A stretch of 21,631 bases of DNA, from positions 1 through 21,631 of the forward strand of contig JAOZGP010000003.1 in assembly GCA_027491735.1 (NCBI GenBank), given 5' to 3'. The notes beneath the pieces are model-generated. The model saw nothing but the letters and a program-made list of their open reading frames with translations. It had not been told where the DNA came from and searched no databases. Positions 134 to 21,058 of this stretch are shown here, piece by piece. This DNA is from Thermoproteota archaeon (GTDB lineage: Archaea > Korarchaeota > Korarchaeia > Korarchaeales > Korarchaeaceae). A program made the translations under genes and the position numbers. The first letter of the stretch is position 1; each line of letters begins with the position of its first letter.

Positions 134-952
134 CTATAATTTAATACCGAAGAGGTTGAGGATCTCTGGATCAAGCACAGAAAAGACCATTCTGAAGGGT
201 GCGAGGATGTGAGCTCCCCATTTCAGCTTGAACCTCCTAACCCCTTCATCCACTCCAAGACCCAGATTCATCCTCTTGATGCCTAGCTCCTTGCTTCTCT
301 CTATCAGCTCATGAAGCAGCAAGTCCGAGGCTCCGGGAACCTCTCTGGAACTGAAGCTGAACATATAGAAAGAGCAGTTTCTGGCTGAGAGATCTCCCAC
401 CGTGAAAGCCACCAGCTTCCCATCCTTTCTCGCCTCCAGCAAGATCACACCCTCTCTCCTGACATAGGACCCGAGCTTTGAGAACATCTCTCTATGCATG
501 TCCGAGATCTCCTTCCTGCCGATCAGGTCCTTCACTATCCTCCCATGCTCTCGGGTCACCTTGTTCCCCTCCACGACCTTCAGTTCCCTAGAAGCTCTTC
601 TCACCATGTTTCTGACTTTCTTGTTGGGTCTAAGTCCTTCCAGGTTTAGATAGTAGTACTCATCCCTCTCCTCCTCCTCGATCCTGTAGGGATAGGACTC
701 AGGTATCCTCGGAGCGATGAGCGTCAGGTACCTGGGTTTTATCCTCCTGACAAGCCTCTCCACTAGATCTTCGAGGTTGTCTTTCTCCTCTAAAGGATAA
801 CCTATTATCCTCAAGTCATCTCCGCGGAGATAATAAAGGCAAGGGCTCTCTAGAAAGGGTTCCAAGTTCGAGAAGGAGGTCATGTAAGACGGAAGATGCT
901 CCGGGATGTATGCCCTCTCCAGGACGTAGCTCATCTCCTCATCCGTGAGCAT
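134..952 (-). CDS. GNAT-fold protein, FemABX/MprF-transferase-domain (DUF2156/Acetyltransf_6)-like
   Basis: The ORF track gives 134..1042 (GTG), but ATG at 952 (MLTDEEMSYVLERAYIPEHL) is a more protein-like start. The C-terminus PGASDLLLHELIERSKELGIKRMNLGLG..EGVRRFKLKWG and the mid-protein KKVRNMVRRA motif match FemAB-like GNAT proteins. Confidence 0.7.
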   Translation of the reverse strand: MLTDEEMSYVLERAYIPEHLPSYMTSFSNLEPFLESPCLYYLRGDDLRIIGYPLEEKDNLEDLVERLVRRIKPRYLTLIAPRIPESYPYRIEEEERDEYYYLNLEGLRPNKKVRNMVRRASRELKVVEGNKVTREHGRIVKDLIGRKEISDMHREMFSKLGSYVRREGVILLEARKDGKLVAFTVGDLSARNCSFYMFSFSSREVPGASDLLLHELIERSKELGIKRMNLGLGVDEGVRRFKLKWGAHILAPFRMVFSVLDPEILNLFGIKL

Positions 953-1125
953 CTTGAGTTCCCTCGGAAACACCAACAAAAAGGTGATGTTTGTGATCCA
1001 GCACCGCCCTATCCAACGGAAAAAGTCGGCTGATCTCTTCACGCCCCACCGCTTGGATGAAATCGGTCAAGAAGAGGTGAGCTTAGATTCGAATTCGCCT
1101 GATCAGAGCTGATAGATCGTGAGGC

Positions 1126-9010: not shown

Positions 9011-9545
9011 AGGAGATGATGTCCAGGGAGACGTTCGTCTACGAGCGATGATATCCCCCGAACCCCATCAGTTATCAGACTGAAGATGCAGTAGGCCTGG
9101 ATACCTTCAGCTCCGAACCTCCCGGATCAGGTAGAGAACCACAGTTCCTTTAAGATAGAGGGGCATGAAACACCATCCACCGATAGAAGCTCCTCTGGAT
9201 CTGCTCATTGCACGGGGGCTGAAGCGATCTACTAAAAGCTTCTATGCTTCATCCCCGTAAACCCTAAGCGAAGTTAGTAGAAGGGGATTGATCTACAGCC
9301 TTGTCGTCAGCCATCTCACCTCTCCTCATCACGTCGGAGATTGTGCTTGCCTCGAGCCCATAAATCTCCGCCTGCTCGAATGACTCAGTGCTCATTCCAT
9401 CATCCGGTTCGACGATTGGGAAATGTCGCATCCCTCGACAGTATTTGTAAATTATTTTTACATATCCTAACGTGTAGCGTTAGAAAATACGGATATAATG
9501 AGCCTCTCTAGAAATGTTTTTATGATACTATCGGGAAAATCAGCA

Positions 9546-11657
9546 ATGAGATTTTATGCTTCCTTCCTAATTATGCTCCTGGTGGCCGGCCTTCTGCTGG
9601 GAAGCACAACAACGAGTGCTCAGCAAGGGAGCCGGATGAGATACAAGCTCAAGGTGCGGATATATCTCACCTACTTCTGGGCCAATGAGCGGGCTGATCT
9701 GGACAACGACATACCAAACGGTGACTCAGATGTCTGGATCTTCTCCTTGATAGAGGAGGAACAGCATGAGGCCCAAACGAAAGCCATAGGGGAGAGAGAG
9801 AATCTGGATCAGCACTGCTGTGATCTGAACAAGAACGAAAAGTACGATTCTGGTGAGAGAAGGATCAAGGTTCTGAACCTCTACAGCGGTAAAGCCATCA
9901 GAACTGATGTAGTGTATGAGGTGGAGCAATGCGAACCCTTGAGGCCATTCCACATCTACATAAAATCGATAGACTCTGACGTAGGGGGGAGCGAGAAAAC
10001 GAAGTATGTTTCATCGGTGATCAAAGGGATCTCCTCGGTGGTGAAGTCGGTAAAGCCCTTTGCCAAGCTGATCGGTTCACTGGCCAGCTTCGTATCGAGC
10101 AAGTTCAGAGATCATGAGGTCATAGGATGGGGCGTCAAGAACTCCTGGCGGCCGTCTAAAGCCTATGAGGTTAAGCCGGGAGCTAAACAGGGAGAGAGGT
10201 GGAACCTGGGCCCGAAAAAGATATGGAATGTTGGAGAGGTTCCTCCTCCCGAAAGGACATGGGTCTCGGAGGAAGTTCCCCTGGAGCTCAGGGAGGATGG
10301 AGAGCTAAGAGCCATCGTGTGGTATAGACTGGAGATCTACAACACCGGAATTCTGTGCTCATGCCAGAAGATCGAGGTTCCCGTTAAGGAGGATCTGAGA
10401 GCCCTGAGAAGCTTGGAACTCATCAGAAGATCGGACATCTCCGAGATGGAGTTCCACCTAAGGACGTCCGATGATCCTCACAACGGGACGAACATCTCCA
10501 TCCTGATGAACAATGAAGAGGTTGCCAAGATATGGGGCGAAGAGGAGATCTTCTGGAGCGGGAACATAAAGTCCCTCTGGAGTGGAAACAAAGAGGTCTC
10601 GGGGGTGCTGGATTTAAGTAGGGTTAAAGGTCCGACCAGGCTGGAATTTGTATCCTATGGACCAAAGGATAAGGTGAACTCCATTACGGCTGATATCATG
10701 GTTTCAGAGCCTGACCTTTGCGTTGTGGCCAACGAGGTAGATCTCAGAATGTCGACTGAGCTTCTATCGAGCTTAGAGGGTTATGGATACCACCATTCCT
10801 CATGTAATCCAGACAACCTGAGAAGTCCTGTGATCCTCGTACTGGGTGGACCGGAATCCTACTCATGGGTCGGGGATTTTGTCTCCTCCCTGCTTCCTCA
10901 GAGCAAAGCCCGAGAGATGAGGGAAAAGCCCACGTCCATCCATTTGAAAGTCGGGGAAAAGGACCTGTATCTTTCAGGAGGTCCTGATAGATACGAGACG
11001 AGAAAAGCAGCTGAATCTTGTCTCGAGAGCCTAGTTAAGACCTTGGTGAATAGAGATTCGAAGCCTCCACAGATCTGGTGGCCCGTGAGCACCAAGGTTG
11101 AGGTTAACGGAAGCTTTACCATTACTTGGAGCGAGCCAGTCAGCTCCATTGAGGTGAGAGCGTTCTCCAAGAATGTGTCGATTCCTGGGCTTAGGGTGTT
11201 CCACAAGGGACGAACCAGTCAGGTGATCCTTCCAGACATCTGCCCAAAGAACTTGAATATTCTCATAAAGGCGGTTGACCTCAAAGGCAACTCAGCCGAT
11301 TCGGTAGTTGAAGTCGTCCGAGCTGGTAAGCCGATCCCCTACCTGGTATATCACCCACAGATCGTTGAGGAGAAAGGGCTTACATGGACCCTGATCGTCG
11401 ACATGGAGAACCTAGGGGATGAGGCCGGAACTGTTTCCTTCACAGGCACCGCAGGTAAACCCAACTTTATTGAGGTCTCTCCACTCGGAAATGGAAGCCT
11501 GATTGTGCCGCCAGGTGGCGTAGGAGCCATGACCTTCAAGATATCCGTGGGCGATGGGGCTGAGACCGGGACCTACACCTTCAAGCTGTTGTTTTATGAG
11601 AAGAACACGCATGTTCTTGAGGAGGTCGAAGTTACCATCAAGATATGGAAGGAATGA
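9546..11657 (+). CDS. Large secreted multidomain protein (C2-like N-domain, cell-wall-binding-2-like segment, Ig-like C-terminal domains)
   Basis: The signal peptide starts at ATG 9546 (MRFYASFLIMLLVAGLLLGSTTTSA), about 25 nt after TTTTTAT at 9517-9523, although the ORF track starts at 9498. Contains VILVLGGPESY..GGPDRYET and Ig/NEW3-like strands (MENLGDEAG..VPPGG..FKISV..AETGTYTF). No C-terminal TM helix. Confidence 0.75.
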   Translation: MRFYASFLIMLLVAGLLLGSTTTSAQQGSRMRYKLKVRIYLTYFWANERADLDNDIPNGDSDVWIFSLIEEEQHEAQTKAIGERENLDQHCCDLNKNEKYDSGERRIKVLNLYSGKAIRTDVVYEVEQCEPLRPFHIYIKSIDSDVGGSEKTKYVSSVIKGISSVVKSVKPFAKLIGSLASFVSSKFRDHEVIGWGVKNSWRPSKAYEVKPGAKQGERWNLGPKKIWNVGEVPPPERTWVSEEVPLELREDGELRAIVWYRLEIYNTGILCSCQKIEVPVKEDLRALRSLELIRRSDISEMEFHLRTSDDPHNGTNISILMNNEEVAKIWGEEEIFWSGNIKSLWSGNKEVSGVLDLSRVKGPTRLEFVSYGPKDKVNSITADIMVSEPDLCVVANEVDLRMSTELLSSLEGYGYHHSSCNPDNLRSPVILVLGGPESYSWVGDFVSSLLPQSKAREMREKPTSIHLKVGEKDLYLSGGPDRYETRKAAESCLESLVKTLVNRDSKPPQIWWPVSTKVEVNGSFTITWSEPVSSIEVRAFSKNVSIPGLRVFHKGRTSQVILPDICPKNLNILIKAVDLKGNSADSVVEVVRAGKPIPYLVYHPQIVEEKGLTWTLIVDMENLGDEAGTVSFTGTAGKPNFIEVSPLGNGSLIVPPGGVGAMTFKISVGDGAETGTYTFKLLFYEKNTHVLEEVEVTIKIWKE

Positions 11658-11778
11658 TCTCTACCGAGGAAGTTTCTGGAGAGACCTGAAACTTGGGGCT
11701 CATACAAACAATATGTTCGAGACGGTCTGGACCGACTTTTTTATCTTTTTCAGGTCACCTGAGATAGTGGATGAGAGC

Positions 11779-12246
11779 ATGTTCAGGAGAATCTTGTTTC
11801 CCACAGATCTCTCCGAGAACTCCTTGGCTCCTATGAGTCTTCTGAAGGAGTTAGCCGAAAAGGGCTCGGACGAGCTCATTTTACTTCACGTGATAAGCGA
11901 GAGCGATGTAGAAGTTGTTGTGGAGAGCATAAAGATCACGGATGGGCCAATGGCGGATGCTCGGAGCGTCGCCATCGACAGGATAAGGAGCGCTAGGGAG
12001 AGGAGACTTCGACATATAGAGAGGGACCTGACAAGACACTTCAAGAAAGTCAAGACGGTGATAGATATTGGAAGGCCTTCAAAGGTCATAGCGGAGGTCG
12101 CTGAAAGGGAGAAGGTCTCTCTGATAGTGATGGCCTCCAGGGGAAGGGCTAAGCTCCCGGAGGACTGGATAGGAAGCACCTCGATGAGGGTCATTATGAC
12201 CACATCCATTCCGGTGCTCGTGTGCAAGAGGCCCTGCCGCGAGTGA
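11779..12246 (+). CDS. Universal stress protein (UspA family)
   Basis: Motifs MFRRILFPTDLSENS, LILLHVI, GRPSKVIAEVAEREKVSLIVMASRG, IGSTSMRVI and IPVLV. The true start is ATG 11779, not 11554. Confidence 0.93.
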   Translation: MFRRILFPTDLSENSLAPMSLLKELAEKGSDELILLHVISESDVEVVVESIKITDGPMADARSVAIDRIRSARERRLRHIERDLTRHFKKVKTVIDIGRPSKVIAEVAEREKVSLIVMASRGRAKLPEDWIGSTSMRVIMTTSIPVLVCKRPCRE

Positions 12247-12288
12247 ACCGTTATAAGGCCCCTAGTTACAGGTTTTCAAAGATAAACT

Positions 12289-13236
12289 ATGGAGTATGTG
12301 AGAGATCTCCTCTGGAAGTCAGGAATCACTGTTAAGGAGCTTGTGGAGGGGTTTGGGACGACGGGCTTTCAGAGCACAGAGCTCTACAAAGCAGCTCGGA
12401 TAATGATAAGGATGAGAGAGGAGGGAGCCAAGGTAATACTCACCTTCACATCTAACATGGTCACCTCAGGGCTCAGAGGTTTATTTGCTCAGCTCATACG
12501 AGTGGGGGTGGCTGACGTAGTGATAACGACTGTGGGCGCTGTTGAGGAGGACATAATGAAGGCCATGGGAGAGAGGTTCTACATACACAGATTCCAGGCC
12601 GACGATGTTGAGCTCCACGAGAGAGGGATGAACAGGGTTGGGAACCTGCTGATAAGCAACGACAGCTACGCTAGGTTCGAGGCATTCGCCAATGAGATCC
12701 TAGACGAGATAGGTAAGAGGAAACCCCGGATAACGGTCTCTGACCTGTTGTACGAGATAGGTATCAGGCTCAGGGATGAGAACTCCTTCCTCTACCAAGC
12801 AGCCAGGAGAGGAGTTCCAGTCTTCTGTCCAGCGATAACGGATGGGGCGTTTGGCTTCCATCTCTTCATGGCCAGGGGGAGACACCCCGAGTTTCAGGTG
12901 GACGTGATCGGAGACTTCTCTAAGATGATATTCTCTCTAAGCCAGGAGGACCGGAAGGGGGTCATAGCCCTGGGAGGAGGGGTCTCCAAGCACCACGCGA
13001 TACTAGCCACCCTTCTGAGCGGGGGAGCTGACTATGCAGTGTATATAACCACAGCTCATCACTCCTCAGGGAGCATGAGCGGAGCCACCACGTCAGAGGC
13101 CAAGAGCTGGGGGAAGCTCAAGGACGATTCCGACTCAGTGACTGTAATAGGAGATGCGACTATCCTCTTCCCCCTGGCCGCTATGTATGCCCTTGAGGTC
13201 CTGAGAGAGGAGGGCCTTCTTAAGGATCTGAGCTGA
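12289..13236 (+). CDS. Deoxyhypusine synthase family protein (divergent paralogue, possibly a polyamine/homospermidine-type synthase)
   Basis: Motifs GFQS, FTSNMVTSGLR, TTVGAVEED, NRVGN, FCPAITDG, LGGGVSKHH, GS.SGA..EAKSWGK (catalytic Lys retained) and GDATILFPL. TATA-like TTATAA at about 12251. Confidence 0.9.
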   Translation: MEYVRDLLWKSGITVKELVEGFGTTGFQSTELYKAARIMIRMREEGAKVILTFTSNMVTSGLRGLFAQLIRVGVADVVITTVGAVEEDIMKAMGERFYIHRFQADDVELHERGMNRVGNLLISNDSYARFEAFANEILDEIGKRKPRITVSDLLYEIGIRLRDENSFLYQAARRGVPVFCPAITDGAFGFHLFMARGRHPEFQVDVIGDFSKMIFSLSQEDRKGVIALGGGVSKHHAILATLLSGGADYAVYITTAHHSSGSMSGATTSEAKSWGKLKDDSDSVTVIGDATILFPLAAMYALEVLREEGLLKDLS

Positions 13237-13245
13237 GGTGGTTGA

Positions 13246-14310
13246 ATGGCCAGGTTCATCCTGAGCAGGAGCATGGTCTTCAGACAGTTCAGGAGAATCT
13301 CTGAGCATGTGGATCTGGTGGCCTACAGCTATAAGACAAACCCGGAGGTGTGGCGGGTTCTCAAGGAGGAGGCAGCATCCATGGTCGGCCTCAGCTCCAT
13401 GGGCTCAGCCGTCAAGGTGAGAGAGCTCAACAGAGCGATGTTCTACGTTCAGGGTGAGAGTGAGGAGGAGATCTCGTGGCTCCTCAGGTCAGGAGTTAGA
13501 TATTTCATAGTTGACAACGAGCCAGAACTCGAGAGACTCCTTCGGGTCCTCGAGAGAGAGGATATGGAGGCGGAGATGTTCTTGAGGATGAAAATGAAGG
13601 AGCACACGATCTACACTGGGAAGCACTTCGTTTACGGGATGAACTGGAGGAGGATCAACGAGATCCTTCCTGAGTTAAGGAGTCATCCTCACGTGAGAGC
13701 TTTGGGAATCCACTTTCACAGAAAGACCCAGAACGTCGGTGAGTGGAGCCTCGTCAAGGACCTTCAGGACGCTTTAAGCGAGAGGAGCTTTGAAGTTCTG
13801 GACATGATAAACGTGGGAGGAGGAATCCCTGTGAGGTACGCGAACACAAGACCTGAGGTTGGAATGATCCTCAACAGGATAGGAGAGCTCAGAGATTTCC
13901 TGAGGAGTAGGGGAATCAGGCTTATGGCTGAGCCCGGAAGGTTCATAGCCGCTCCAAGCGTGGCCCTGGAATCCTCTGTTCTAAACGTCTACGAAAACGT
14001 GGCCGTGCTCGACTGCTCGATATTCAATGCCTACATGGACACATATCTTCTGAACATAAGACTGCCGGTTCTTGGAGAGGTTGAGGAAGGCAAAGGAAGG
14101 AGATATCTGCTCAAGGGCAGATCTCCCGATTCCCTAGACATATTCAGATACTCAGTATATCTGAAGAGGAAGCTCCGACCAGGAGATATCGTCACGTTTC
14201 TCAACGCCGGAGCCTACAACTTCCACTCAGAGTTCAATGACCTACCTAAGATAGGAACAGTTATCGTGGACGAGTTCCCGTTCGACTTTCCAGATGAGCT
14301 CATTCTCTAG
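13246..14310 (+). CDS. PLP-dependent Orn/DAP/Arg decarboxylase family 2 (alanine-racemase fold III)
   Basis: Motifs YSYKTNP (PLP Lys), GIHFH, INVGGG, AEPGRFIA, PDSLD and FLNAGAY. The RBS GAGGTG overlaps the stop codon of the upstream DHS-like gene. Confidence 0.88.
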   Translation: MARFILSRSMVFRQFRRISEHVDLVAYSYKTNPEVWRVLKEEAASMVGLSSMGSAVKVRELNRAMFYVQGESEEEISWLLRSGVRYFIVDNEPELERLLRVLEREDMEAEMFLRMKMKEHTIYTGKHFVYGMNWRRINEILPELRSHPHVRALGIHFHRKTQNVGEWSLVKDLQDALSERSFEVLDMINVGGGIPVRYANTRPEVGMILNRIGELRDFLRSRGIRLMAEPGRFIAAPSVALESSVLNVYENVAVLDCSIFNAYMDTYLLNIRLPVLGEVEEGKGRRYLLKGRSPDSLDIFRYSVYLKRKLRPGDIVTFLNAGAYNFHSEFNDLPKIGTVIVDEFPFDFPDELIL

Positions 14311-14502: not shown

Positions 14503-15456
14503 ATGAGCACAAGGGTTCTCATAGCTCTTGGAGGGAACGCGATAAAGCAAGCTGACGAAAGAGGAACTTACGAGGAACAGATGAAAAATGTAAACAGAAC
14601 CGCTGAGGAGATCGTCAGACTGATAAGAGAGGGATATCGTGTGGTGGTAACCCATGGTAATGGTCCTCAGGTGGGAGCGCTCTTGATACAGCAGGAGGAA
14701 GGGGCTAAGAGAGGCGTACCACCCCAACCCATGCACGTCTGTGGTGCGATGACCCAAGGGCAAATAGGATACATGCTTCAACAGGCCCTCATCAATGAGA
14801 TGAAGAAACAGAGGTTTTCTGTGCCTGTGGCGACTGTGATAACGCAAGTGATGGTCAGGAAGAATGATCCCAACTTTAACGACCCTCATAAGCCCGTGGG
14901 ACCTTTTTACGATGAGAAAACTGCTAGGAGATTGATAAGGGAGAAGGGATACATTATTAAGAGGGTGAGGCCGAATGGAGATAAGCCCTACAGAAGAGTC
15001 GTGCCCTCACCTGATCCAATAGGACCCGTCGAGGCTGAGGCCATAAAGCGGTTGGTGGACGCCGGTGTGATCGTGATTGCTTCTGGAGGTGGAGGAATTC
15101 CTGTTATCGAGGATGATGGAGTACTTAGGGGAGTGGATGCTGTCATAGATAAGGATCTAGCAGGAGAAAAGCTTGCTGAGGTTGTAAAGGCGGATATCTT
15201 CATGATACTGACCGATGTGAGCAGGGTCAAGCTGAACTATGGTAAGCCAGATGAGAGGGATATAGTGAGGATGACTGTCTCCGAGGCCAGGAGATACATG
15301 GCTGAGGGACACTTTCTGCCTGGGAGCATGGAACCCAAGGTGAAGGCCTGCATACACTTCATAGAGGCAGAAGGTAAGCTAGCCGTGATAGCCAAGCTTG
15401 ATCAGGCCTTGGAGGCCCTCAGGGGGGAGGCAGGGACCTGGATAGTTCCTGACTGA
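14503..15456 (+). CDS. arcC: Carbamate kinase
   Basis: Motifs IALGGNA, THGNGPQVG, AMTQGQIGY, KPVGPFY, RRVVPSPDP, GGGGIPV, AVIDKD and GSMEPKV. Confidence 0.96.
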   Translation: MSTRVLIALGGNAIKQADERGTYEEQMKNVNRTAEEIVRLIREGYRVVVTHGNGPQVGALLIQQEEGAKRGVPPQPMHVCGAMTQGQIGYMLQQALINEMKKQRFSVPVATVITQVMVRKNDPNFNDPHKPVGPFYDEKTARRLIREKGYIIKRVRPNGDKPYRRVVPSPDPIGPVEAEAIKRLVDAGVIVIASGGGGIPVIEDDGVLRGVDAVIDKDLAGEKLAEVVKADIFMILTDVSRVKLNYGKPDERDIVRMTVSEARRYMAEGHFLPGSMEPKVKACIHFIEAEGKLAVIAKLDQALEALRGEAGTWIVPD

Positions 15457-15691: not shown

Positions 15692-17140
15692 TCACATACC
15701 GTATATGACTTCCACGGTCTCCAGGGATGGGTCTTTGGCCAGGAGTATTCCTCCATGTCTCTTAACGGTTAGCAGATATTCTATATCCTCTTTGGAGATC
15801 CTGAAGCCCTTTATCAATATGGGAACTCCAGGCGGATAGGGAGTTATGTTCTCCGCCGAGATCATGCCTGGAGCCAGCCTGAGCGGGACTCTCCTCGAAA
15901 TTATCCTCTTTGGCATTCTCCTGACTATGTATGGGTCTATGACGGGAGGATCGGCCCTGAGAGGTGGTCTCAGAAGCTTTTTATTCCTCACAGTACCGAC
16001 TTCTGAAAGTGCTTTCCCTACAGCTTTGGTTGTGATGTCCACGTCCTCCTCCCTCAACTGAAAGGTTGCCATGAAGAGTAAGGAGTTGTAGTTTGAGGTC
16101 TCGGGGACTACCCTGTATTTCCTCTGAAGCAGGAGATCAAGTTGAAATCCCGTCGTGTCGTAGCTGGTGAGTATCACCTGGGTCTTCGTGAGGTCCCATC
16201 CAGATATCCTGTCCCTCCACTTCTCGAGAAGCCCGTCGTCCATTATCTTCAGCTTGGGAATTTCCTTGAGTTTTTCTCTCAGTTCTTCAGCTTTTTTTAT
16301 CACGCTTCCCACAGCTCTCTTCCCACTTCTCTCCAGATAGCTCCTAGCAGCATCCAAGGAGGCCATTAGATGAAATGAGGGACTTGTGGTCGTGTAACCC
16401 CTGTAGGCCTCCATCATGAGGTCTGAGTCAACCCGATCTCTCTTCCAGTGGATCATCCCGGTCTGTTGGAGGGAGCCCCCTTGTTTATGGGTGCTTTGTA
16501 TGCTCACATCCGCCCCAGCCTCCATGGCGGTCTCGGGAAGCCTGTCGCTGAACCTAAAGTGGGATCCCCAAGCCTCGTCCACAATTATCAGGACATCCTC
16601 GCTGAAATTTCTTATTCTCCTCACGATCTCCTTGAGCTTGCAAGAGAGACCTTCGTAGGTCGGGTTGGATAGAAGGACAGCGTTGGCCTCGGGATGTCTT
16701 CTGAGGGATTCTTCAACATCGTCTGGGGTTGGAGGCACGAAGGCATCCAGCTCCTCGTCATACTGTGAGGGGATGAAGCGATACCTTATGCCGAAGTCCT
16801 CACAGGCGTTTTGGACACTCACGTGTATGTTCCTAGTAACCAGCACAAGCGGAGTTCCGTAGGCCAGCGATAGATATCTCATCACTATGTAAACGCTCCC
16901 GGTAGATCCATGAACGCTAAATAAGGTCATATCAGCTCCGTAAAGTTTAGCAGCTCTCTCTTGAGCCTCATAAAATATTCCCGAACTCTCCCCTGGTATT
17001 CCATAGATGGAGAGAGAAGCAGAGACGTCCGTTCCGTATATGTCCTCCACTCGTTCAGCATTGAGGATCACTGAGGGGGTGCACCATCTCACGTATCTCC
17101 TCACTTCTCTGTTCAGGAAGTCGACGAGCTTGGAGCCCAT
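15692..17140 (-). CDS. Orn/Lys/Arg decarboxylase family 1 (fold-I PLP, wing-less SpeA/YaaO-like)
   Basis: Motifs EAQERAAKLYGAD, GSTG, NPTYEG, VDEAWGSH, QSTHK (PLP Lys), TTSPSF.LMASLD, D.TK and PYPPGVP. Confidence 0.9.
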   Translation of the reverse strand: MGSKLVDFLNREVRRYVRWCTPSVILNAERVEDIYGTDVSASLSIYGIPGESSGIFYEAQERAAKLYGADMTLFSVHGSTGSVYIVMRYLSLAYGTPLVLVTRNIHVSVQNACEDFGIRYRFIPSQYDEELDAFVPPTPDDVEESLRRHPEANAVLLSNPTYEGLSCKLKEIVRRIRNFSEDVLIIVDEAWGSHFRFSDRLPETAMEAGADVSIQSTHKQGGSLQQTGMIHWKRDRVDSDLMMEAYRGYTTTSPSFHLMASLDAARSYLERSGKRAVGSVIKKAEELREKLKEIPKLKIMDDGLLEKWRDRISGWDLTKTQVILTSYDTTGFQLDLLLQRKYRVVPETSNYNSLLFMATFQLREEDVDITTKAVGKALSEVGTVRNKKLLRPPLRADPPVIDPYIVRRMPKRIISRRVPLRLAPGMISAENITPYPPGVPILIKGFRISKEDIEYLLTVKRHGGILLAKDPSLETVEVIYGM

Positions 17141-17326: not shown

Positions 17327-18253
17327 ATGGTTGTTGGGTATGTGGAGAAGCTCGCCTCCAGGATCTCACGGTTGAAAAGGGAGAGAAGAGCTGTCATACT
17401 CGGACACAATTATCAGGATCCTTATGTTCAGGAGATAGCTGATTTCCTTGGAGATAGCCTGGAGCTCGCTAGAAAAGCGATGTCCGTGGATGCAGATGTC
17501 ATAGTCTTTGCTGGGGTCTCCTTCATGGCTGAGATGGCTGCCATCCTGAACCCGAATCGGATCGTCCTCCATCCTGAACCCTCGGCCGGCTGTCCTCTAG
17601 CAGATCATCTCAGCAGGGAGGTGGTTGACTTCTACAGGAGAAGATATCCTGACGCTCCTCTGGTCATCTACATAAACTCCCATGCCTCGGTCAAGGCGAT
17701 ATCCGACTACATCGTCACGAGCTCCTCCGCCGTCAGATTGGTATCTCAGCTGGATACTGACACAGTTCTTTTTGGTCCTGATAGAAACCTTGCCAGCTAC
17801 GTGGCAGAGAAGACCGATAAGGAGGTGGTGCCTGTTCCTAATAACGGACATTGTCCCGTTCACGAACACCTTCTCTCCTCCTATCACGTAAGGCTGGCGA
17901 GGGAGATTCATCCGAATGCCAAGATCCTCGCGCACCCGGAGGTCAGACCGGAGGTCAGAAGAATGGCTGACTTTGTGGGGAGCACCAGCCAGATGCTCAA
18001 AGCTGTCAGCTCATTGGAGGGCGAGCTTCTCATAGGAACCGAAGAAGGGCTTTCCGTAAGAGTTAGAAGAGAGAACCCAGGAAGAAAGATCTTTCCTGTT
18101 AATCCAGGAGCTATCTGCATAGACATGAAGAAGATAAACCTGGAGAATATAGAGGTTACGCTCAGGGAAATGGGTCCCAGGGTGAAGGTCGACAAAAAGG
18201 TGGCTTATAAGGTCAGGGAAGTTTTGATGAGATCTTTAGATATTTTGAGGTGA
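17327..18253 (+). CDS. nadA: Quinolinate synthase
   Basis: Motifs ILGHNYQ, GDSLELA, FMAE, YINS, AHPE, GSTSQM and GTEEG, with three 4Fe-4S Cys ligands (AGCPLA, GHCPVH, AICIDMK). Confidence 0.97.
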   Translation: MVVGYVEKLASRISRLKRERRAVILGHNYQDPYVQEIADFLGDSLELARKAMSVDADVIVFAGVSFMAEMAAILNPNRIVLHPEPSAGCPLADHLSREVVDFYRRRYPDAPLVIYINSHASVKAISDYIVTSSSAVRLVSQLDTDTVLFGPDRNLASYVAEKTDKEVVPVPNNGHCPVHEHLLSSYHVRLAREIHPNAKILAHPEVRPEVRRMADFVGSTSQMLKAVSSLEGELLIGTEEGLSVRVRRENPGRKIFPVNPGAICIDMKKINLENIEVTLREMGPRVKVDKKVAYKVREVLMRSLDILR

Positions 18254-19098
18254 TTACCACGTTTTTCGAGGACTTCTTAAGGTTCTTGAGGGAGGATATC
18301 CCTTTTTGGGATCTGACATCTGAGCTCCTGATCCCTGAGGACATCGATGTGAGAGCTGAGGTGATAGCTGAGGAGGATGGAGTTGTAGCCTTTACGGAGG
18401 AGTTGAGCTCTTTTCTCAAAGGAATGGGCATCAAGACAAGGTTCATTAGGAGTGGAAGCAGGATCAGGGACGGAGATGTCATAATGGAGCTCAGAGGCAA
18501 GGTCAGGAGGATCCTGCTTGTCGAGAGAACAGCCCTCAACCTTCTGGCTAGGGCCTGTGGGATAGCTACAAAAACAGCCAGAGTTGTTGAGAAGGTCAGA
18601 AAGATCAACCCTCGTGTCAGGATCGCCTGCACGAGAAAGACCACGCCAGGCCTCAGGTACCTCGAGAAGAGAGCTGTTATGGCTGGGGGAGGTGATACTC
18701 ACAGGTTGTCCCTCAGCGACATGGTGCTCATAAAGGACAACCATCTAGCGATCGTTGGAGGAGTTGAGGAGGCTTTGAGGAGGGCCAAGAACGCCGGCTT
18801 TGCTTTCAAGGTGGAGGTGGAGGTCAGCACTCCTGAGGAGGCTGTGAAGGCTGCCGAAGCAGGAGCCGACGTAGTCATGCTGGACAACTTCAGACCTGAG
18901 GAAGTTGAGAGAGCCCTCAGCATGCTCAAAGCTGAAGGTTTAAGGGAAAAGGTTCTGATAGAGGTTAGCGGAGGCATTGGAGAGGATAACGTGATCGATT
19001 ACGCGAAGTTCGATGTGGACGTGATAAGCATGGGGGAGCTGACCTGTGGAGCAAGACCTCTGAAGATGAGCTTAGAGGTTCGGGAGGTGATCCGGTGA
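18250..19098 (+). CDS. nadC: Nicotinate-nucleotide pyrophosphorylase (quinolinate phosphoribosyltransferase)
   Basis: Motifs ERTALN, GIATKT, TRKTTPGLR, HRLSLSD..LIKDNH, EVEV, MLDNF and EVSGGI. GTGA start/stop overlap with nadA. Confidence 0.97.
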   Translation: MITTFFEDFLRFLREDIPFWDLTSELLIPEDIDVRAEVIAEEDGVVAFTEELSSFLKGMGIKTRFIRSGSRIRDGDVIMELRGKVRRILLVERTALNLLARACGIATKTARVVEKVRKINPRVRIACTRKTTPGLRYLEKRAVMAGGGDTHRLSLSDMVLIKDNHLAIVGGVEEALRRAKNAGFAFKVEVEVSTPEEAVKAAEAGADVVMLDNFRPEEVERALSMLKAEGLREKVLIEVSGGIGEDNVIDYAKFDVDVISMGELTCGARPLKMSLEVREVIR

Positions 19099-19868
19099 GG
19101 ATCGCTATCATAGGATGTGGAAACATAGGAGGTGAGATAGTCAGGGCCGTCTGTGGGGGAAGGTTGAAGTCCAATGTGACAGCGTTGATGGATAGATATC
19201 CTGAGAAGTGCTTTCATTTGGCCTTGATTCTTGAGAAGTCGACTGGGCTCCGCCCAGTAGTGGCTGAAGGGATTGAAGATCTTCTCGAGGTTAAACCGGA
19301 TCTCGTTGTCGAGGCGGCCAGCCAGGAGGCGGTCAGGCAGTATGCTAGGAGGATCCTAGAGAGGGGCATAGACCTCGTGGTGATGAGCGTTGGAGCTCTC
19401 CTGAACGAGGAGTTCCTTCAAGAGGTCTCAAGTTTGGATGGAAGGATCTATGTTCCATCTGGTGCCATAGCGGGATTGGATGCTGTCAGAGCTATGAGAC
19501 ACTCCGGGATAACCAGGATTGTCCTGAGAACGAGGAAAAATCCCAGATCGCTGGGCATGAAACTTGAAGAGAGGAAGGTTCTCTTTGAGGGACCGGCGAG
19601 CAGGGCTGTCAAGGAGTTTCCCTTCAACGTGAATGTCGCAGCTGCTCTATCGCTAGCTGCTGGAAGAGAAGCCTGGGTTCAGGTTATAGCCGATCCTGGC
19701 GTTGAGATGAACGTCCATGAGCTGGAAATAGTCTCGGACGCTTCAACACTGAGAGTTGCCGTGGAAAACAGGCCAAGCCCCTCGAACCCAAGGACAAGCT
19801 ATCTTGCCTGCCTCTCTGCAGTAGAGCTGCTGCGATCATTGGAGGACAAGGTCCGTGTGGGGACCTAG
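19095..19868 (+). CDS. nadX: L-aspartate dehydrogenase
   Basis: Rossmann motif IIGCGNIG, plus VEAASQEAV, MSVGAL, PSGAIAGLD, TRKNP, FPFNVNVAA and NPRTSYLA. RBS GGAGGTGA and GTGA overlap with nadC. Confidence 0.96.
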   Translation: MRIAIIGCGNIGGEIVRAVCGGRLKSNVTALMDRYPEKCFHLALILEKSTGLRPVVAEGIEDLLEVKPDLVVEAASQEAVRQYARRILERGIDLVVMSVGALLNEEFLQEVSSLDGRIYVPSGAIAGLDAVRAMRHSGITRIVLRTRKNPRSLGMKLEERKVLFEGPASRAVKEFPFNVNVAAALSLAAGREAWVQVIADPGVEMNVHELEIVSDASTLRVAVENRPSPSNPRTSYLACLSAVELLRSLEDKVRVGT

Positions 19869-19934: not shown

Positions 19935-20012
19935 GAGGAATGGTGAGTGCGTTGCGATAACAATTTGATTAGATTTTGCTATTTCTTCGAGGGCATCTAA
20001 CAGATCCTTTTT
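19935..20012 (-). pseudogene. Short relic of an ABC-type (AAA_15/AAA_21, OLD-like) ATPase
   Basis: The minus strand reads KKDLLDALEEIAKSNQIVIATHSPFL, the post-Walker-B helix and H-loop (THSP). No start codon or Walker A/B motifs in frame. Confidence 0.65.
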
Positions 20013-20070
20013 GCTTCACTGAAGAATCGCCTAACATTTGTAATAATTTCTCTATAATCTGTTGCCGTTG

Positions 20071-21058
20071 TGCCTTGTCGAACAAACACTCATAGAATAA
20101 TACACAATAAAAATTAAATTTCAATAAAACCTTCAGCTAACCCATGCCAAAGATAAACTGGAAGGAGTACAACGAGAAACTCGTAAAGAGAGGAGAAATT
20201 TTATTCAGTACAGAGTTCATAGAAAACTGGAAGAAAGAGCTCAATTCAATGAACGAAAGAAAGAGAGGTCATCCTTACGAATATCCTGATTCTTTCATGC
20301 AGTTCTTAGCATCAATACGCTACTACTACCACCTCGACTACAGAACCCTGGAAGGATTCTGCAGGCTTGTCAAGAATTCTCGATATGCAGCCAAGATCAT
20401 TCAACTATCCACAAGAGAGTTCCGAAGTTAGATTTCACCCCTCCTGAACTTGATTCGGAAGAAATCGTTATAGCGGTCGACTCTTCAGGAATAAAGGTAC
20501 ACAACAGGGGAGAGTGGATGAGGGAGAAGTACAGGAGGAGAAGGGGATGGATAAAGATTCACTTCGCTGTCGACGTTGAAACAAAGCAGATCGTAGCTTA
20601 CGAGGTTACGGACGAACAAACACATGATAACAAGGTCTTCAAGGATTTGGTTGAGAAGTCGTGCGAGAAAGCAAAGGTTAAGAGGGTTCTTGCCGACAAA
20701 GCGTACGACAGCTACGAAAACTTCGAATTTCTTCAGTCTAAAGGCATAGATCCCGCTATTCCGGTGAGGAGAGGAGCAATAGACATCCTGATCCATCCTC
20801 GCAGTGAAGAGGCAAGGAAGCAGAAAGAATTCGAGAAATGGAAGATGGAGAAGGAATACGGATTAAGGTGGATGGCCGAGACAGCTTATTTTATCTTTAA
20901 GGGGTACCTTGGTGAATTTGTTTCTGCAAAGAAATGGAGGTACATGCTTGCAGAAATTGCGGCTAAGGTTTGGATATACAACTCGTTGAGGGTTGTTCTC
21001 TGAAGGATGTTGGTTTGAAGAGAAGGGAGAAGTTAATTAAGAATTAGTCGACAAAGCA
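20071..21058 (+). mobile_element. IS5-family (IS903-group-like) insertion sequence
   Basis: Imperfect terminal IRs TGCCTTGTCGA (20071) and the reverse complement of TCGACAAAGCA (ending 21058) resemble the IS903 end GGCTTTGTTGA and enclose a DDE transposase. Confidence 0.88.
20144..21003 (+). pseudogene. IS5-family DDE transposase, frameshifted near 20365-20400
   Basis: The first frame gives INWKEYNEKLVKRGEI..RGHPYEYPD..YRTLEGF. The second frame gives DHSTIHKR..IAVDSSGIK..GEWMREK..WIKIH..HD..LADKAYD..RWMAET. Confidence 0.88.

What the first reader, a model, noticed from the sequence alone, without database searches (positions are those of the whole stretch)
12289..14310. Coupled DHS-paralogue plus fold-III decarboxylase operon: candidate undescribed amine-synthesis or protein-modification system
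Seen: the two genes are 9 bp apart, the RBS overlaps the first stop codon, the pair has its own TATA-like box, and both keep their catalytic lysines. Known: DHS-family enzymes use NAD+ to transfer an aminoalkyl group either to a/eIF5A (deoxyhypusine) or to a small amine (DHS-like homospermidine synthases), and fold-III decarboxylases make putrescine, agmatine or cadaverine. Inference: the decarboxylase makes a dedicated amine which the paralogue condenses into an unusual polyamine or attaches to a protein lysine. Both active sites deviate from canonical enzymes (next two findings), so the product may be new. I recall similar pairs in DPANN genomes, which is unverified.
Basis: partly seen in the sequence, partly recalled or inferred. 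Interest (0 to 1): 0.75.

Follow-up and report, generated by a model that had tools for sequence, protein, structure and literature searches.

The report
Agmatine-type deoxyhypusine synthase with its own decarboxylase
The archaeon's only deoxyhypusine synthase sits in a widely conserved two-gene cassette with an unusual compact decarboxylase, and probably modifies translation factor aIF5A from arginine via agmatine rather than from spermidine.

Summary
A 315-aa deoxyhypusine synthase (DHS, 12289-13236) and a 354-aa fold-III PLP decarboxylase (DC3, 13246-14310) are 9 bp apart, with a GAGGTGG over the stop codon.

The DHS is not a paralogue; it is the only DHS found in this 88%-complete genome. 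It does belong to a separate clade, DHS-A. All 79 decarboxylase-linked DHS form one branch (SH-aLRT 100). Relatives in the same phylum carry either DHS-A plus DC3 or an ordinary stand-alone DHS.

The pair recurs in 79 of 81 related loci (DPANN and Korarchaeota-type archaea).
- **Agmatinase link:** all 38 DPANN genomes with DC3 also have an agmatinase-family gene, against 25 of 63 without.
- **Equivalent slot:** a pyruvoyl SpeD-like decarboxylase fills the same slot in other DPANN clusters. Two such DPANN SpeD homologues are published arginine decarboxylases.
- **Pocket:** DHS-A carries the two pocket changes (Phe, Met/Leu) that set the agmatine-coupling enzyme CdmS apart from human DHS.

Best reading: DC3 makes agmatine, DHS-A uses it as C4 donor for aIF5A, and a ureohydrolase finishes. 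DC3 lacks the canonical catalytic Cys (Pro instead), which is unexplained. No step is tested biochemically.

This scan noted the same pair earlier on other DNA. I found no paper describing it.

The parts
12251..12256 (+). TTATAA, a TATA-box-like hexamer 38 nt upstream of the DHS start codon. No Shine-Dalgarno-like run lies before the DHS ATG, so a leaderless transcript is possible.
   Evidence: Read from the sequence. Not tested against chance or by transcript data. No RNA run was listed.
12289..13236 (+). Deoxyhypusine synthase of the DHS-A clade, 315 aa, the only DHS of the genome. Catalytic K276, H235, K234, E270, W274 and D185 are kept. Pocket residues F190 and M263 stand where human DHS has D243 and D316. 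S260 stands where human DHS has D313.
   Evidence: CdmS pocket comparison from PMC10981699 (passages).
13235..13241 (+). GAGGTGG ribosome-binding-like run overlapping the DHS stop codon (TGA 13234-13236), 4 nt before the DC3 ATG. It suggests translational coupling.
   Evidence: In 77 related pairs the two ORFs overlap in 46 and lie 1-30 bp apart in 22 (starts taken as the first in-frame start codon, so approximate).
13246..14310 (+). DC3, a compact (354 aa) alanine-racemase-fold (fold III, group IV) PLP decarboxylase and probable arginine decarboxylase. It has K30 (PLP lysine), H158-R-K-T-Q-N in place of H-x-G-S-Q, G191-G-G, E229-P-G-R, and S-P294-D295-S where canonical enzymes have T-C-D-S.

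Best explanation
The finding is a self-contained cassette for modifying translation factor aIF5A without spermidine.

Proposed steps:
1. DC3, a compact fold-III PLP decarboxylase, decarboxylates L-arginine to agmatine (inferred).
2. DHS-A, a separate clade of deoxyhypusine synthase and the only DHS of the genome, uses agmatine as its four-carbon donor (inferred). It keeps the full NAD/lysine catalytic set (shown by alignment). Its donor pocket carries the same two replacements that distinguish the agmatine-coupling enzyme CdmS/SpeY from human DHS (shown by alignment).
3. An agmatinase-family ureohydrolase removes urea (inferred). It would act either on a 4-guanidinobutyl-lysine formed on aIF5A K36, or earlier on agmatine or diagmatine. 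This gene lies elsewhere in this genome and directly downstream of DC3 in about a third of DPANN genomes.
4. The end product is deoxyhypusine on aIF5A (inferred); homospermidine may be a by-product.

The two genes are translationally coupled and inherited together. In Korarchaeota-type genomes the cassette replaces the ordinary stand-alone DHS, and it probably arrived from DPANN archaea by gene transfer (inferred from a tree).
For: (1) **Sole DHS.** There is one PF01916 match in the genome. aIF5A is present with the KPGKHG motif.

(2) **Linkage.**
- A DHS lies upstream of DC3 in 79 of 81 loci.
- The two are adjacent in 13 of 13 DC3-bearing genomes of the window's own phylum set of 43.
- They are adjacent in 36 of 38 DC3-bearing genomes of a 101-genome DPANN sample.

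(3) **DHS-A is a clade.**
- All 79 linked DHS form one split, with SH-aLRT 100 and a stem of 0.67.
- Linked DHS of the same phylum set are 75-84% identical to the window's.
- Unlinked DHS of the same phylum are 31-49% identical, and those of one genus 32-36%.
- Seventeen further unlinked DPANN DHS are 34-42% identical.

(4) **Ureohydrolase link.**
- An arginase-family gene occurs in 38 of 38 DC3-bearing DPANN genomes against 25 of 63 others. It lies directly downstream of DC3 in 13.
- It lies next to the pair in 11 of 81 loci.
- In genus g4, 5 of 6 DC3-bearing genomes have a second copy, while 13 of 13 DHS-B genomes have one.
- All those scanned are agmatinase type, not arginase type: TIGR01230 scores 184-211 bits, at or above the cut-off of 174. 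The window genome's own copy scores 157.

(5) **Equivalent slot.** DC3-less DPANN clusters read DHS, then an AdoMet_dc homologue, then agmatinase (L130, L131). One holds an AdoMet_dc-DHS fusion (L132). Two DPANN SpeD homologues from speY clusters were shown to be arginine decarboxylases (PMC10407285, passages).

(6) **Pocket.** CdmS differs from human DHS at F204 and L286 versus D243 and D316 (PMC10981699). DHS-A has Phe at the first position in 80 of 80 and Met/Leu/Val/Ala at the second in 80 of 80.

(7) **No other decarboxylase.** 28 of 38 DC3-bearing DPANN genomes show neither an AdoMet_dc nor a PvlArgDC homologue. In those, DC3 is the only candidate source of a substrate for the agmatinase.

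(8) **Bacterial parallel.** Fold-III ODC homologues next to speY in bacteria are arginine decarboxylases (PMC13625781, abstract and passages).
Against: - No enzyme here has been assayed.
- The window genome and its kin also have two AdoMet_dc homologues, a SpeE and an agmatinase, plus a fold-I decarboxylase three genes away. Spermidine and another agmatine source are therefore probably available, and a dedicated arginine decarboxylase looks redundant.
- DC3 lacks the catalytic Cys kept by ODC, DapDC, Lys/Orn decarboxylase and CASDC.
- DC3's best solved matches are Lys/Orn decarboxylases, not arginine decarboxylases.
- DHS-A scores only 143 bits on the SpeY/CdmS model NF002699 (cut-off 500).
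- Non-acidic pocket residues also occur in stand-alone DHS-B (Thr/Leu) and in Sulfolobus DHS. Phe also occurs in 3 unlinked DHS.
- The three PvlArgDC-adjacent DHS that I aligned (L155-L157) keep the human-like Asp/Asp pocket. Adjacency to an arginine decarboxylase alone therefore does not prove direct use of agmatine.
- Fold-I and SpeA-type decarboxylases were not surveyed in the DPANN sample.
- Genome samples are related to one another, so the counts overstate independence.
Confidence: 0.6

Rival explanations
1. This is a polyamine pathway only. DC3 (arginine decarboxylase), DHS-A (working as SpeY/CdmS) and the agmatinase make diagmatine and then homospermidine, as in bacteria. aIF5A modification is not the purpose of the cassette.
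For: The same gene logic is the published SpeY pathway (PMC13625781; PMC10981699). DPANN speDA-speY-speB clusters were read this way (PMC10407285). The pocket is like that of CdmS.
Against: DHS-A is the only DHS in the window genome. A DHS was found in 100 of 101 DPANN genomes sampled, mostly as a single match. aIF5A keeps its target lysine. DHS-A scores far nearer the archaeal DHS models (327.6 bits) than the SpeY model (143 bits). Frequent neighbours in DPANN are ribosome-biogenesis genes (KH/Pno1-like, RIO1). Both functions may coexist.
Confidence: 0.12
2. DC3 is an ornithine or lysine decarboxylase. DHS-A then takes putrescine (or cadaverine, or homospermidine made from putrescine) as donor.
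For: The best solved matches of DC3 are the Vibrio and Selenomonas Lys/Orn decarboxylases. D295, which aligns with the distal-amine-binding Asp of the canonical C-D-S motif, is kept in 72 of 84.
Against: An agmatinase would then be unnecessary, yet it co-occurs in 38 of 38 and is of agmatinase type, not arginase type. The pocket resembles the agmatine enzyme. ODC-like neighbours of speY in bacteria turned out to be arginine decarboxylases.
Confidence: 0.1
3. DC3 is not a plain decarboxylase. Without the proton-donating Cys it could perform decarboxylation-dependent transamination. It would then hand an aldehyde (4-guanidinobutanal) to DHS-A, which would act as a reductive aminase on aIF5A. Alternatively, DC3 decarboxylates a carboxylated intermediate after the DHS step.
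For: Pro replaces the Cys in 82 of 84 DC3. A solved Cys-to-Ser variant of a related decarboxylase holds PMP and 4-guanidinobutanal (title of PDB entry 9cpz). Dialkylglycine decarboxylase is a natural decarboxylating transaminase (PMC6411801). DHS-A has S260 where other DHS have an Asp, equivalent to human D313. This reading would explain why DC3 is kept beside other arginine decarboxylases. BtrK shows that the fold can act on a protein-tethered amino acid.
Against: True arginine decarboxylases (SpeD-like) occupy the same slot in sister clusters. The scheme needs an amino acceptor and external NADH. Relatives of DC3 vary between Asp and Cys at the neighbouring position, so another residue may donate the proton. 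There is no direct evidence.
Confidence: 0.08
4. This is an ordinary spermidine-dependent DHS that merely sits next to an unrelated decarboxylase.
For: The genome has SpeE and AdoMet_dc homologues. The catalytic residues of DHS are all kept.
Against: Linkage is strict over several phyla. The two are co-inherited as a clade. The stand-alone DHS is displaced within a genus. The pocket lacks both Asp residues.
Confidence: 0.07

Closest known systems
Bacterial SpeY/CdmS pathway: arginine decarboxylase, DHS homologue (1,9-bis(guanidino)-5-aza-nonane synthase) and ureohydrolase (Kobayashi 2024, PMC10981699; Li 2026, PMC13625781)
   Same: The gene logic is the same: decarboxylase, DHS homologue, agmatinase-type enzyme. 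A fold-III decarboxylase lies directly beside the DHS homologue. Pocket residues are Phe and a hydrophobic residue in place of human D243 and D316.
   Different: The pair here is archaeal and the DHS is the only DHS, so it should act on aIF5A. It scores 143 bits on NF002699 (cut-off 500) against 327.6 bits on an archaeal DHS model. The decarboxylase belongs to a different compact family that lacks the catalytic Cys. Gene order is DHS first.
DPANN speDA-speY-speB clusters (Li 2023, PMC10407285)
   Same: The organisms are of the same kind, and DHS and agmatinase stand in the same places. The decarboxylase there is a proven arginine decarboxylase.
   Different: That decarboxylase is a pyruvoyl SpeD homologue, unrelated in fold to DC3. 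The DHS of those clusters lies outside the DHS-A clade and has Met or Leu, not Phe, at the first pocket position.
Haloferax volcanii model of agmatine-dependent deoxyhypusine synthesis (Prunetti 2016, PMC5178350)
   Same: It proposes the same sequence: arginine decarboxylase, transfer of agmatine by DHS to aIF5A, then an essential agmatinase-like enzyme. DHS clusters with agmatinase (passages).
   Different: There the decarboxylase is pyruvoyl type and unlinked, and the cluster holds aIF5A. That model is itself unproven; in vitro assays failed.
Canonical deoxyhypusine synthase (human 1rlz/6xxj, Sulfolobus 8put, Pyrococcus 7cmc)
   Same: The fold is the same, about 200 bits to solved DHS. K329, H288, E323 and W327 equivalents are kept.
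   Different: D243, D313 and D316 equivalents are Phe, Ser and Met. It scores below the NCBIfam equivalog cut-offs. It is obligately linked to a decarboxylase.
Fold-III basic amino acid decarboxylases (Vibrio vulnificus Lys/Orn decarboxylase 2plj; chlorella virus arginine decarboxylase 2nva; ODC)
   Same: The two-domain fold matches (Foldseek E 3e-23, TM 0.72). The PLP lysine, stacking His, GGG and EPGR motifs are present.
   Different: DC3 is 40-70 residues shorter. It has H-R-K-T-Q instead of H-x-G-S-Q and Pro instead of the catalytic Cys. It reaches no NCBIfam equivalog cut-off.

Membership tests
Deoxyhypusine synthase family (Pfam PF01916) | Domain match over the gathering score | tested here: met
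   336.4 bits against a cut-off of 27, covering 1-286 of 288 profile positions.
Deoxyhypusine synthase family (Pfam PF01916) | Catalytic lysine (human K329) and His288, Glu323, Trp327 | tested here: met
   K276, H235, E270 and W274 align with the human residues. They are conserved in at least 95% of DHS-A and at least 90% of other DHS.
Deoxyhypusine synthase, NCBIfam equivalogs (NF002294, TIGR00321) | Score at or above the curated equivalog cut-off | tested here: not met
   327.6 against 350 and 301.3 against 304.25. Stand-alone DHS of related genomes pass, with 396-398 bits.
Deoxyhypusine synthase (function) | Transfers a C4 unit to the conserved lysine of aIF5A | not testable with these tools
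   Only indirect evidence: it is the sole DHS and aIF5A has the KPGKHG motif.
SpeY/CdmS agmatine homocoupling enzyme (NF002699) | Score at or above the equivalog cut-off | tested here: not met
   143 bits against 500. Other DHS-A score 148-151 bits.
SpeY/CdmS agmatine homocoupling enzyme (NF002699) | Phe and Leu in place of human D243 and D316 in the donor pocket | tested here: met
   F190 and M263 in the window. Phe in 80 of 80 and Met/Leu/Val/Ala in 80 of 80 DHS-A. The feature is taken from PMC10981699.
SpeY/CdmS agmatine homocoupling enzyme (NF002699) | Genomic association with an arginine decarboxylase and an agmatinase-type ureohydrolase | tested here: met
   DC3 is adjacent. An agmatinase-family gene is in 38 of 38 DC3-bearing DPANN genomes and once in the window genome. 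That DC3 is an arginine decarboxylase is inferred.
Fold-III (alanine racemase fold, group IV) PLP decarboxylases | N-terminal barrel domain with PLP lysine, stacking His, Gly-rich loop and EPGR | tested here: met
   PF02784 at 55.2 bits. K30, H158, G191-193 and E229-R232 are invariant. Foldseek E 3e-23 to 2plj.
Fold-III (alanine racemase fold, group IV) PLP decarboxylases | Catalytic Cys of the C-D/E-S motif from the second domain | tested here: not met
   Pro294 in the window. At positions 294-295, P-D occurs in 71, P-C in 11 and N-D in 1 of 84, with 1 unmatched. The Cys is kept in 2plj and in CASDC.
Arginine decarboxylase (any named family) | Match to a curated ADC model, or measured activity | tested here: not met
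   SpeA model NF003763 scores 15.2 bits against 369. Activity is not testable here. The assignment rests on context only.
Carboxy(nor)spermidine decarboxylase (TIGR01047) | Score at or above the equivalog cut-off | tested here: not met
   20.3 bits against 409. The resemblance is only a language-model one (0.93).
Diaminopimelate decarboxylase (TIGR01048) | Score at or above the equivalog cut-off | tested here: not met
   83.2 bits against 297.9.

The most novel reading that the evidence does not exclude
DC3 has lost the proton-donating cysteine because it is not meant to release an amine. It would decarboxylate arginine and deliver the aldehyde-level C4 unit (4-guanidinobutanal or its PMP ketimine) straight to DHS-A. 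DHS-A, with an altered NAD-site residue (Ser for Asp), would then work as a reductive aminase on aIF5A. Together they would form a two-enzyme machine for protein modification. This would explain why the pair is inseparable even in genomes that already make agmatine and spermidine.
Probability: 0.07. Interest if true: 0.9.

Novelty: new variant of a known kind. Interest (0 to 1): 0.62.

Why it matters
Hypusine on IF5A is essential in eukaryotes and archaea, yet many archaea have no spermidine pathway. How they build the modification has been open since the Haloferax work of 2016. A 2026 paper asks outright whether archaea encode agmatine-dependent as well as spermidine-dependent DHS (PMC13625781).

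This cassette gives a compact candidate of two or three genes. It comes with a natural control, because close relatives in one genus carry either the cassette or an ordinary stand-alone DHS.

It also defines an unstudied family of compact PLP decarboxylases without the usual catalytic cysteine. The family has about 39 clusters at 50% identity with E no greater than 1e-30, and 428 matching stretches in species genomes encode a relative.

Tried and rejected
- **Complex prediction (DHS-A alignment A2 with DC3 alignment A3).** The job was never accepted because the queue was full. Whether the two proteins bind was therefore not examined.
- **The look-up of sequencing runs.** No RNA holder was listed, so co-transcription could not be looked at and read laying was not used.
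- **The search of earlier findings by sequence.** Nothing was returned.
- **Agmatinase pairwise identities.** All were 24-38% apart from one close pair, so they could not tell which agmatinase type the window genome keeps. One row failed because of its name.
- **TiaS argument.** I first argued that DC3 must be the arginine decarboxylase needed for tRNA agmatidine. I dropped this because the TiaS_FLD domain was found in 0 of 5 DC3-bearing DPANN genomes.
- **Arginase plus ODC variant.** Rejected because the ureohydrolases score as agmatinase, not arginase.
- **CASDC-like role.** Suggested by the protein atlas, but not supported by HMM scores.
- **Local neighbours in the window.** Carbamate kinase was seen beside the pair in 0 of 81 and 0 of 36 other loci, and the fold-I decarboxylase in 1 of 81. 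I did not build on them.
- **Literature.** Searches found no paper on an archaeal DHS paired with a fold-III decarboxylase. Supplements were not read.
Full report
**What is in the window.**
- The window holds a 315-aa ORF at 12289-13236 and a 354-aa ORF at 13246-14310 on the + strand.
- The first is a deoxyhypusine synthase: PF01916 at 336.4 bits and about 200 bits to solved archaeal and human DHS.
- The second is a fold-III (alanine racemase fold) PLP decarboxylase. PF02784 scores 55.2 bits; the C-terminal domain model scores 18.4 bits, below its cut-off.
- Nine bases separate them, and GAGGTGG overlaps the TGA of the first gene.
- A TTATAA lies 38 nt before the first ATG; I did not test it.
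- Surrounding genes are a universal stress protein upstream, then carbamate kinase downstream, a fold-I Orn/Lys/Arg decarboxylase on the other strand, and a NadA-NadC-aspartate dehydrogenase operon.

**Not a paralogue, but a separate kind of DHS.** The genome has 1.36 Mb in 41 contigs and is 87.85% complete. It holds one PF01916 match and one PF02784 match, both in this window. aIF5A is encoded elsewhere (133 aa...SKSKPGKHGAAK..., target lysine K36) within a ribosomal-protein cluster. This DHS should therefore be the one that modifies aIF5A.

It nevertheless falls just under the NCBIfam DHS equivalog cut-offs: 327.6 against 350, and 301.3 against 304.25.

**Conservation of the pair.** Close relatives of the decarboxylase (DC3) all had a DHS directly upstream, in 6 of 6 loci. 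A profile of 16 DC3 sequences matched 476 stretches in the species-genome collection. Of these, 428 encode a relative, and the best 80 were kept.

In the 81 loci L005-L085:
- 79 have a DHS upstream on the same strand.
- 74 of those have at most 142 bp between the matches, and 5 have 481-3247 bp.
- One locus (L046) has none within 4 kb.
- One locus (L060) begins at a contig end.

Record titles name Woese-, Aenigm-, Iain-, Alti-, Micr-, Undin- and Nanoarchaeota (DPANN), Ca. Korarchaeum, Ca. Methanodesulfokora and 'Thermoproteota'. In 77 pairs with both ORFs, 46 overlap and 22 lie 1-30 bp apart (starts approximate).

**Two DHS types that exclude each other.** In the 43 genomes held for the window's phylum, 39 have a DHS and 13 have DC3, always beside the DHS. 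Within one genus of 21 genomes, 6 have DC3.
- Linked DHS of this phylum set are 75-84% identical to the window's. Unlinked DHS of the same phylum are 31-49% identical, and those of that genus 32-36%.
- DPANN linked DHS are 54-65% identical.
- A tree of 114 DHS was built with IQ-TREE (quick search, LG+G4). I left out seven loci fetched twice and fragments under 230 aligned residues.
- That tree puts all 79 linked DHS on one side of a branch with SH-aLRT 100 and length 0.67, with no unlinked DHS inside.
- Seventeen further unlinked DPANN DHS are 34-42% identical. The one exception at 61% comes from a genome whose DC3 lies on another contig.
- I call the clade DHS-A. The stand-alone DHS of the sister genomes (DHS-B) pass the equivalog cut-off with 396-398 bits.
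- Inside DHS-A the 12 rows of the window's lineage form one clade (SH-aLRT 100) nested among DPANN rows and next to Aenigmatarchaeota-type rows (node support 92). This suggests transfer from DPANN and displacement of DHS-B. That conclusion rests on outgroup rooting and is an inference.

**What co-varies.**
- SpeE and two AdoMet_dc homologues occur in both DHS-A and DHS-B genomes and in the window genome. The spermidine route therefore does not co-vary.
- Arginase-family genes do. In that genus, 5 of 6 DC3-bearing genomes have a second copy of about 273 aa, while 13 of 13 DHS-B genomes have one.
- The window genome and its nearest genera have a single copy.

A sample of 101 genomes (at least 80% complete) from the phylum of a DPANN genome gave these results:

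| Feature | Count |
|---|---|
| DHS present | 100 of 101 |
| DC3 strongly matched | 38 of 101 |
| DC3 weakly matched | 1 of 101 |
| DC3 beside DHS | 36 of the 38 |
| Arginase-family gene, DC3-bearing genomes | 38 of 38 |
| Arginase-family gene, remaining genomes | 25 of 63 |
| Arginase-family gene directly downstream of DC3 | 13 |

Eleven of the 81 loci show the same three-gene order. Every ureohydrolase scanned scores as agmatinase (TIGR01230, 184-211 bits; the window genome's copy 157, below the cut-off of 174) and poorly as arginase (69-97 bits).

**The decarboxylase slot.** In DC3-less DPANN genomes the DHS is often clustered in the same way:
- DHS, then an AdoMet_dc homologue, then agmatinase (L130, L131).
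- A fused AdoMet_dc-DHS of 442 aa followed by an agmatinase (L132).
- DHS then agmatinase (L133).
- A PvlArgDC gene lies within 3 kb of the DHS in four genomes.

Two DPANN SpeD homologues from such speY clusters were shown to be arginine decarboxylases (PMC10407285, passages). Fold-III ODC homologues beside bacterial speY are also arginine decarboxylases (PMC13625781, abstract and passages). DC3 thus stands where proven arginine decarboxylases of unrelated folds stand.

Of the 38 DC3-bearing DPANN genomes, 9 have an AdoMet_dc homologue and 1 a PvlArgDC, so 28 have neither. Fold-I and SpeA-type enzymes were not surveyed there.

**The DHS pocket.** DHS-A keeps K276, H235, K234, E270, W274 and D185, the equivalents of human K329, H288, K287, E323, W327 and D238. 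Kobayashi et al. report that the agmatine-coupling CdmS differs from human DHS in the substrate site at two residues: F204 and L286 for D243 and D316 (PMC10981699, passages).

An alignment of 132 DHS shows:

| DHS group | Residue at D243 position | Residue at D316 position |
|---|---|---|
| DHS-A (80 of 80) | Phe | Met, Leu, Val or Ala |
| DHS-A, window | F190 | M263 |
| SpeD-linked DHS | Met or Leu | Leu |
| DHS-B | Thr | Leu |
| 10 stand-alone DPANN DHS | Asp | Asp |
| 3 aligned PvlArgDC-adjacent DHS (L155-L157) | Asp | Asp |
| 3 unlinked DHS (L092, L097, L137) | Phe | Val |

The Asp/Asp rows are the human-like pattern. DHS-A also has Ser where most others have the D313-equivalent Asp, in 78 of 80. 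The pocket evidence favours agmatine but is not exclusive.

**The decarboxylase itself.**
- An AlphaFold model (pLDDT 88.1, pTM 0.87) matches fold-III decarboxylases. The best match is the Vibrio Lys/Orn decarboxylase (E 3e-23, TM 0.72), followed by SbnH, D-Orn/Lys decarboxylase, DapDC, ODC, BtrK and the chlorella virus arginine decarboxylase.
- The profile search gives the same order.
- DC3 keeps the PLP lysine, the stacking His, GGG and EPGR. It reads H-R-K-T-Q-N in 84 of 84, where canonical enzymes read H-x-G-S-Q.
- It has Pro where they have the catalytic Cys. At the two positions, P-D occurs in 71, P-C in 11 and N-D in 1 of 84, with 1 unmatched.
- CASDC keeps that Cys (PMC11866407, passages).
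- A solved Cys-to-Ser variant of a related enzyme holds PMP and 4-guanidinobutanal (title of PDB entry 9cpz). Loss of the Cys can therefore divert the reaction to an aldehyde.
- The nearest outgroup is also unnamed. It consists of compact decarboxylases 30-35% identical to DC3, which vary at these two positions. Another residue may therefore take over.
- The full-library search found 39 representative clusters at E no greater than 1e-30.

**Reading.** The most economical account is arginine to agmatine by DC3, agmatine as C4 donor for DHS-A, and an agmatinase-type enzyme removing urea to yield deoxyhypusine on aIF5A. This is the Haloferax model of Prunetti et al. (PMC5178350, passages) with a dedicated decarboxylase, and the archaeal counterpart of the bacterial SpeY pathway.

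The order of the last two steps is open, and so is any homospermidine by-product. One point is unexplained: genomes that already have SpeD-type decarboxylases and SpeE keep DC3, and the Cys is gone. A physical complex, or a changed reaction, would account for both. The complex prediction could not be queued.

**Relation to earlier work.** This scan had already noted the DHS plus compact-decarboxylase pair and the SpeD-DHS fusion on other DPANN DNA (e1-981967, e1-3184560, e1-2516940). Those notes prompted the pocket check, which I made independently.

- DHS-A and DHS-B exclude each other within one genus.
- A second agmatinase co-varies with the cassette.
- The cassette is present in genomes with a full spermidine route.
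- The clade test and the slot equivalence.

Paper searches found no description of an archaeal DHS paired with a fold-III decarboxylase. The 2026 paper states that ODC-SpeY co-occurrence in eubacteria is limited to Alpha- and some Gammaproteobacteria and leaves the archaeal question open.

Noticed in passing
window 14503-15456 (+) and 15692-17140 (-): Carbamate kinase (TIGR00746, 431.6 bits, over its cut-off) lies 192 bp downstream of DC3. Next comes a 482-aa fold-I Orn/Lys/Arg decarboxylase, of the size class of the fold-I archaeal arginine decarboxylase described in PMC8503589. This arginine/agmatine-flavoured neighbourhood is local: carbamate kinase was seen beside the pair in none of the other loci, and the fold-I enzyme in one (L064).
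   Followed up: partly
window 9498-11657 (+) and 11554-12246 (+): A 719-aa ORF with a hydrophobic N-terminus has no Pfam family. Its end overlaps the listed start of the universal stress protein ORF. The Usp domain begins only at residue 76 of that ORF, so its true start is probably later.
   Followed up: no
window 134-1042 (-); L130:573-1475, L131:543-1469: A GNAT/LPG_synthase_C-like gene lies at the window's start. The same Pfam family follows the agmatinase in two DPANN DHS-SpeD-agmatinase clusters. A link to polyamine or aIF5A acylation is possible but untested.
   Followed up: no
L132:2902-4230 (-): An intact 442-aa fusion of an AdoMet_dc (SpeD-like) domain to a DHS occurs in a DPANN genome. 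It is followed by an unknown 176-aa ORF and an agmatinase-family gene.
   Followed up: partly
DPANN genomes G047, G051, G056, G066, G105: The TiaS_FLD domain (PF08489) was found in 0 of 5 DC3-bearing DPANN genomes, while it was found in four archaeal control genomes. These lineages may not need agmatine for tRNA-Ile modification.
   Followed up: no
DC3 family, positions 294-295 (window numbering): Eleven of 84 DC3 read P-C instead of P-D, so a Cys sits one place after the canonical Cys position. The same Asp/Cys alternation runs through the unnamed outgroup of compact decarboxylases.
   Followed up: partly
window 20518-21003 (+), 20001-21000: A DDE transposase fragment (PF01609) lies in a stretch where G+C falls to 0.42, against about 0.50 elsewhere in the window.
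   Followed up: no
window 17327-19868 (+): NadA, NadC and aspartate dehydrogenase ORFs overlap at their ends (18250 against 18253; 19095 against 19098). This is a compact de novo NAD operon.
   Followed up: no
DPANN loci L138, L139, L141-L144, L147, L149, L150, L154-L157: Many stand-alone or PvlArgDC-adjacent DPANN DHS keep the human-like Asp/Asp/Asp pocket. In the three DPANN genomes checked for SpeE, only weak Spermine_synth matches (20-34 bits) were seen. Where these organisms would get spermidine is unclear.
   Followed up: no
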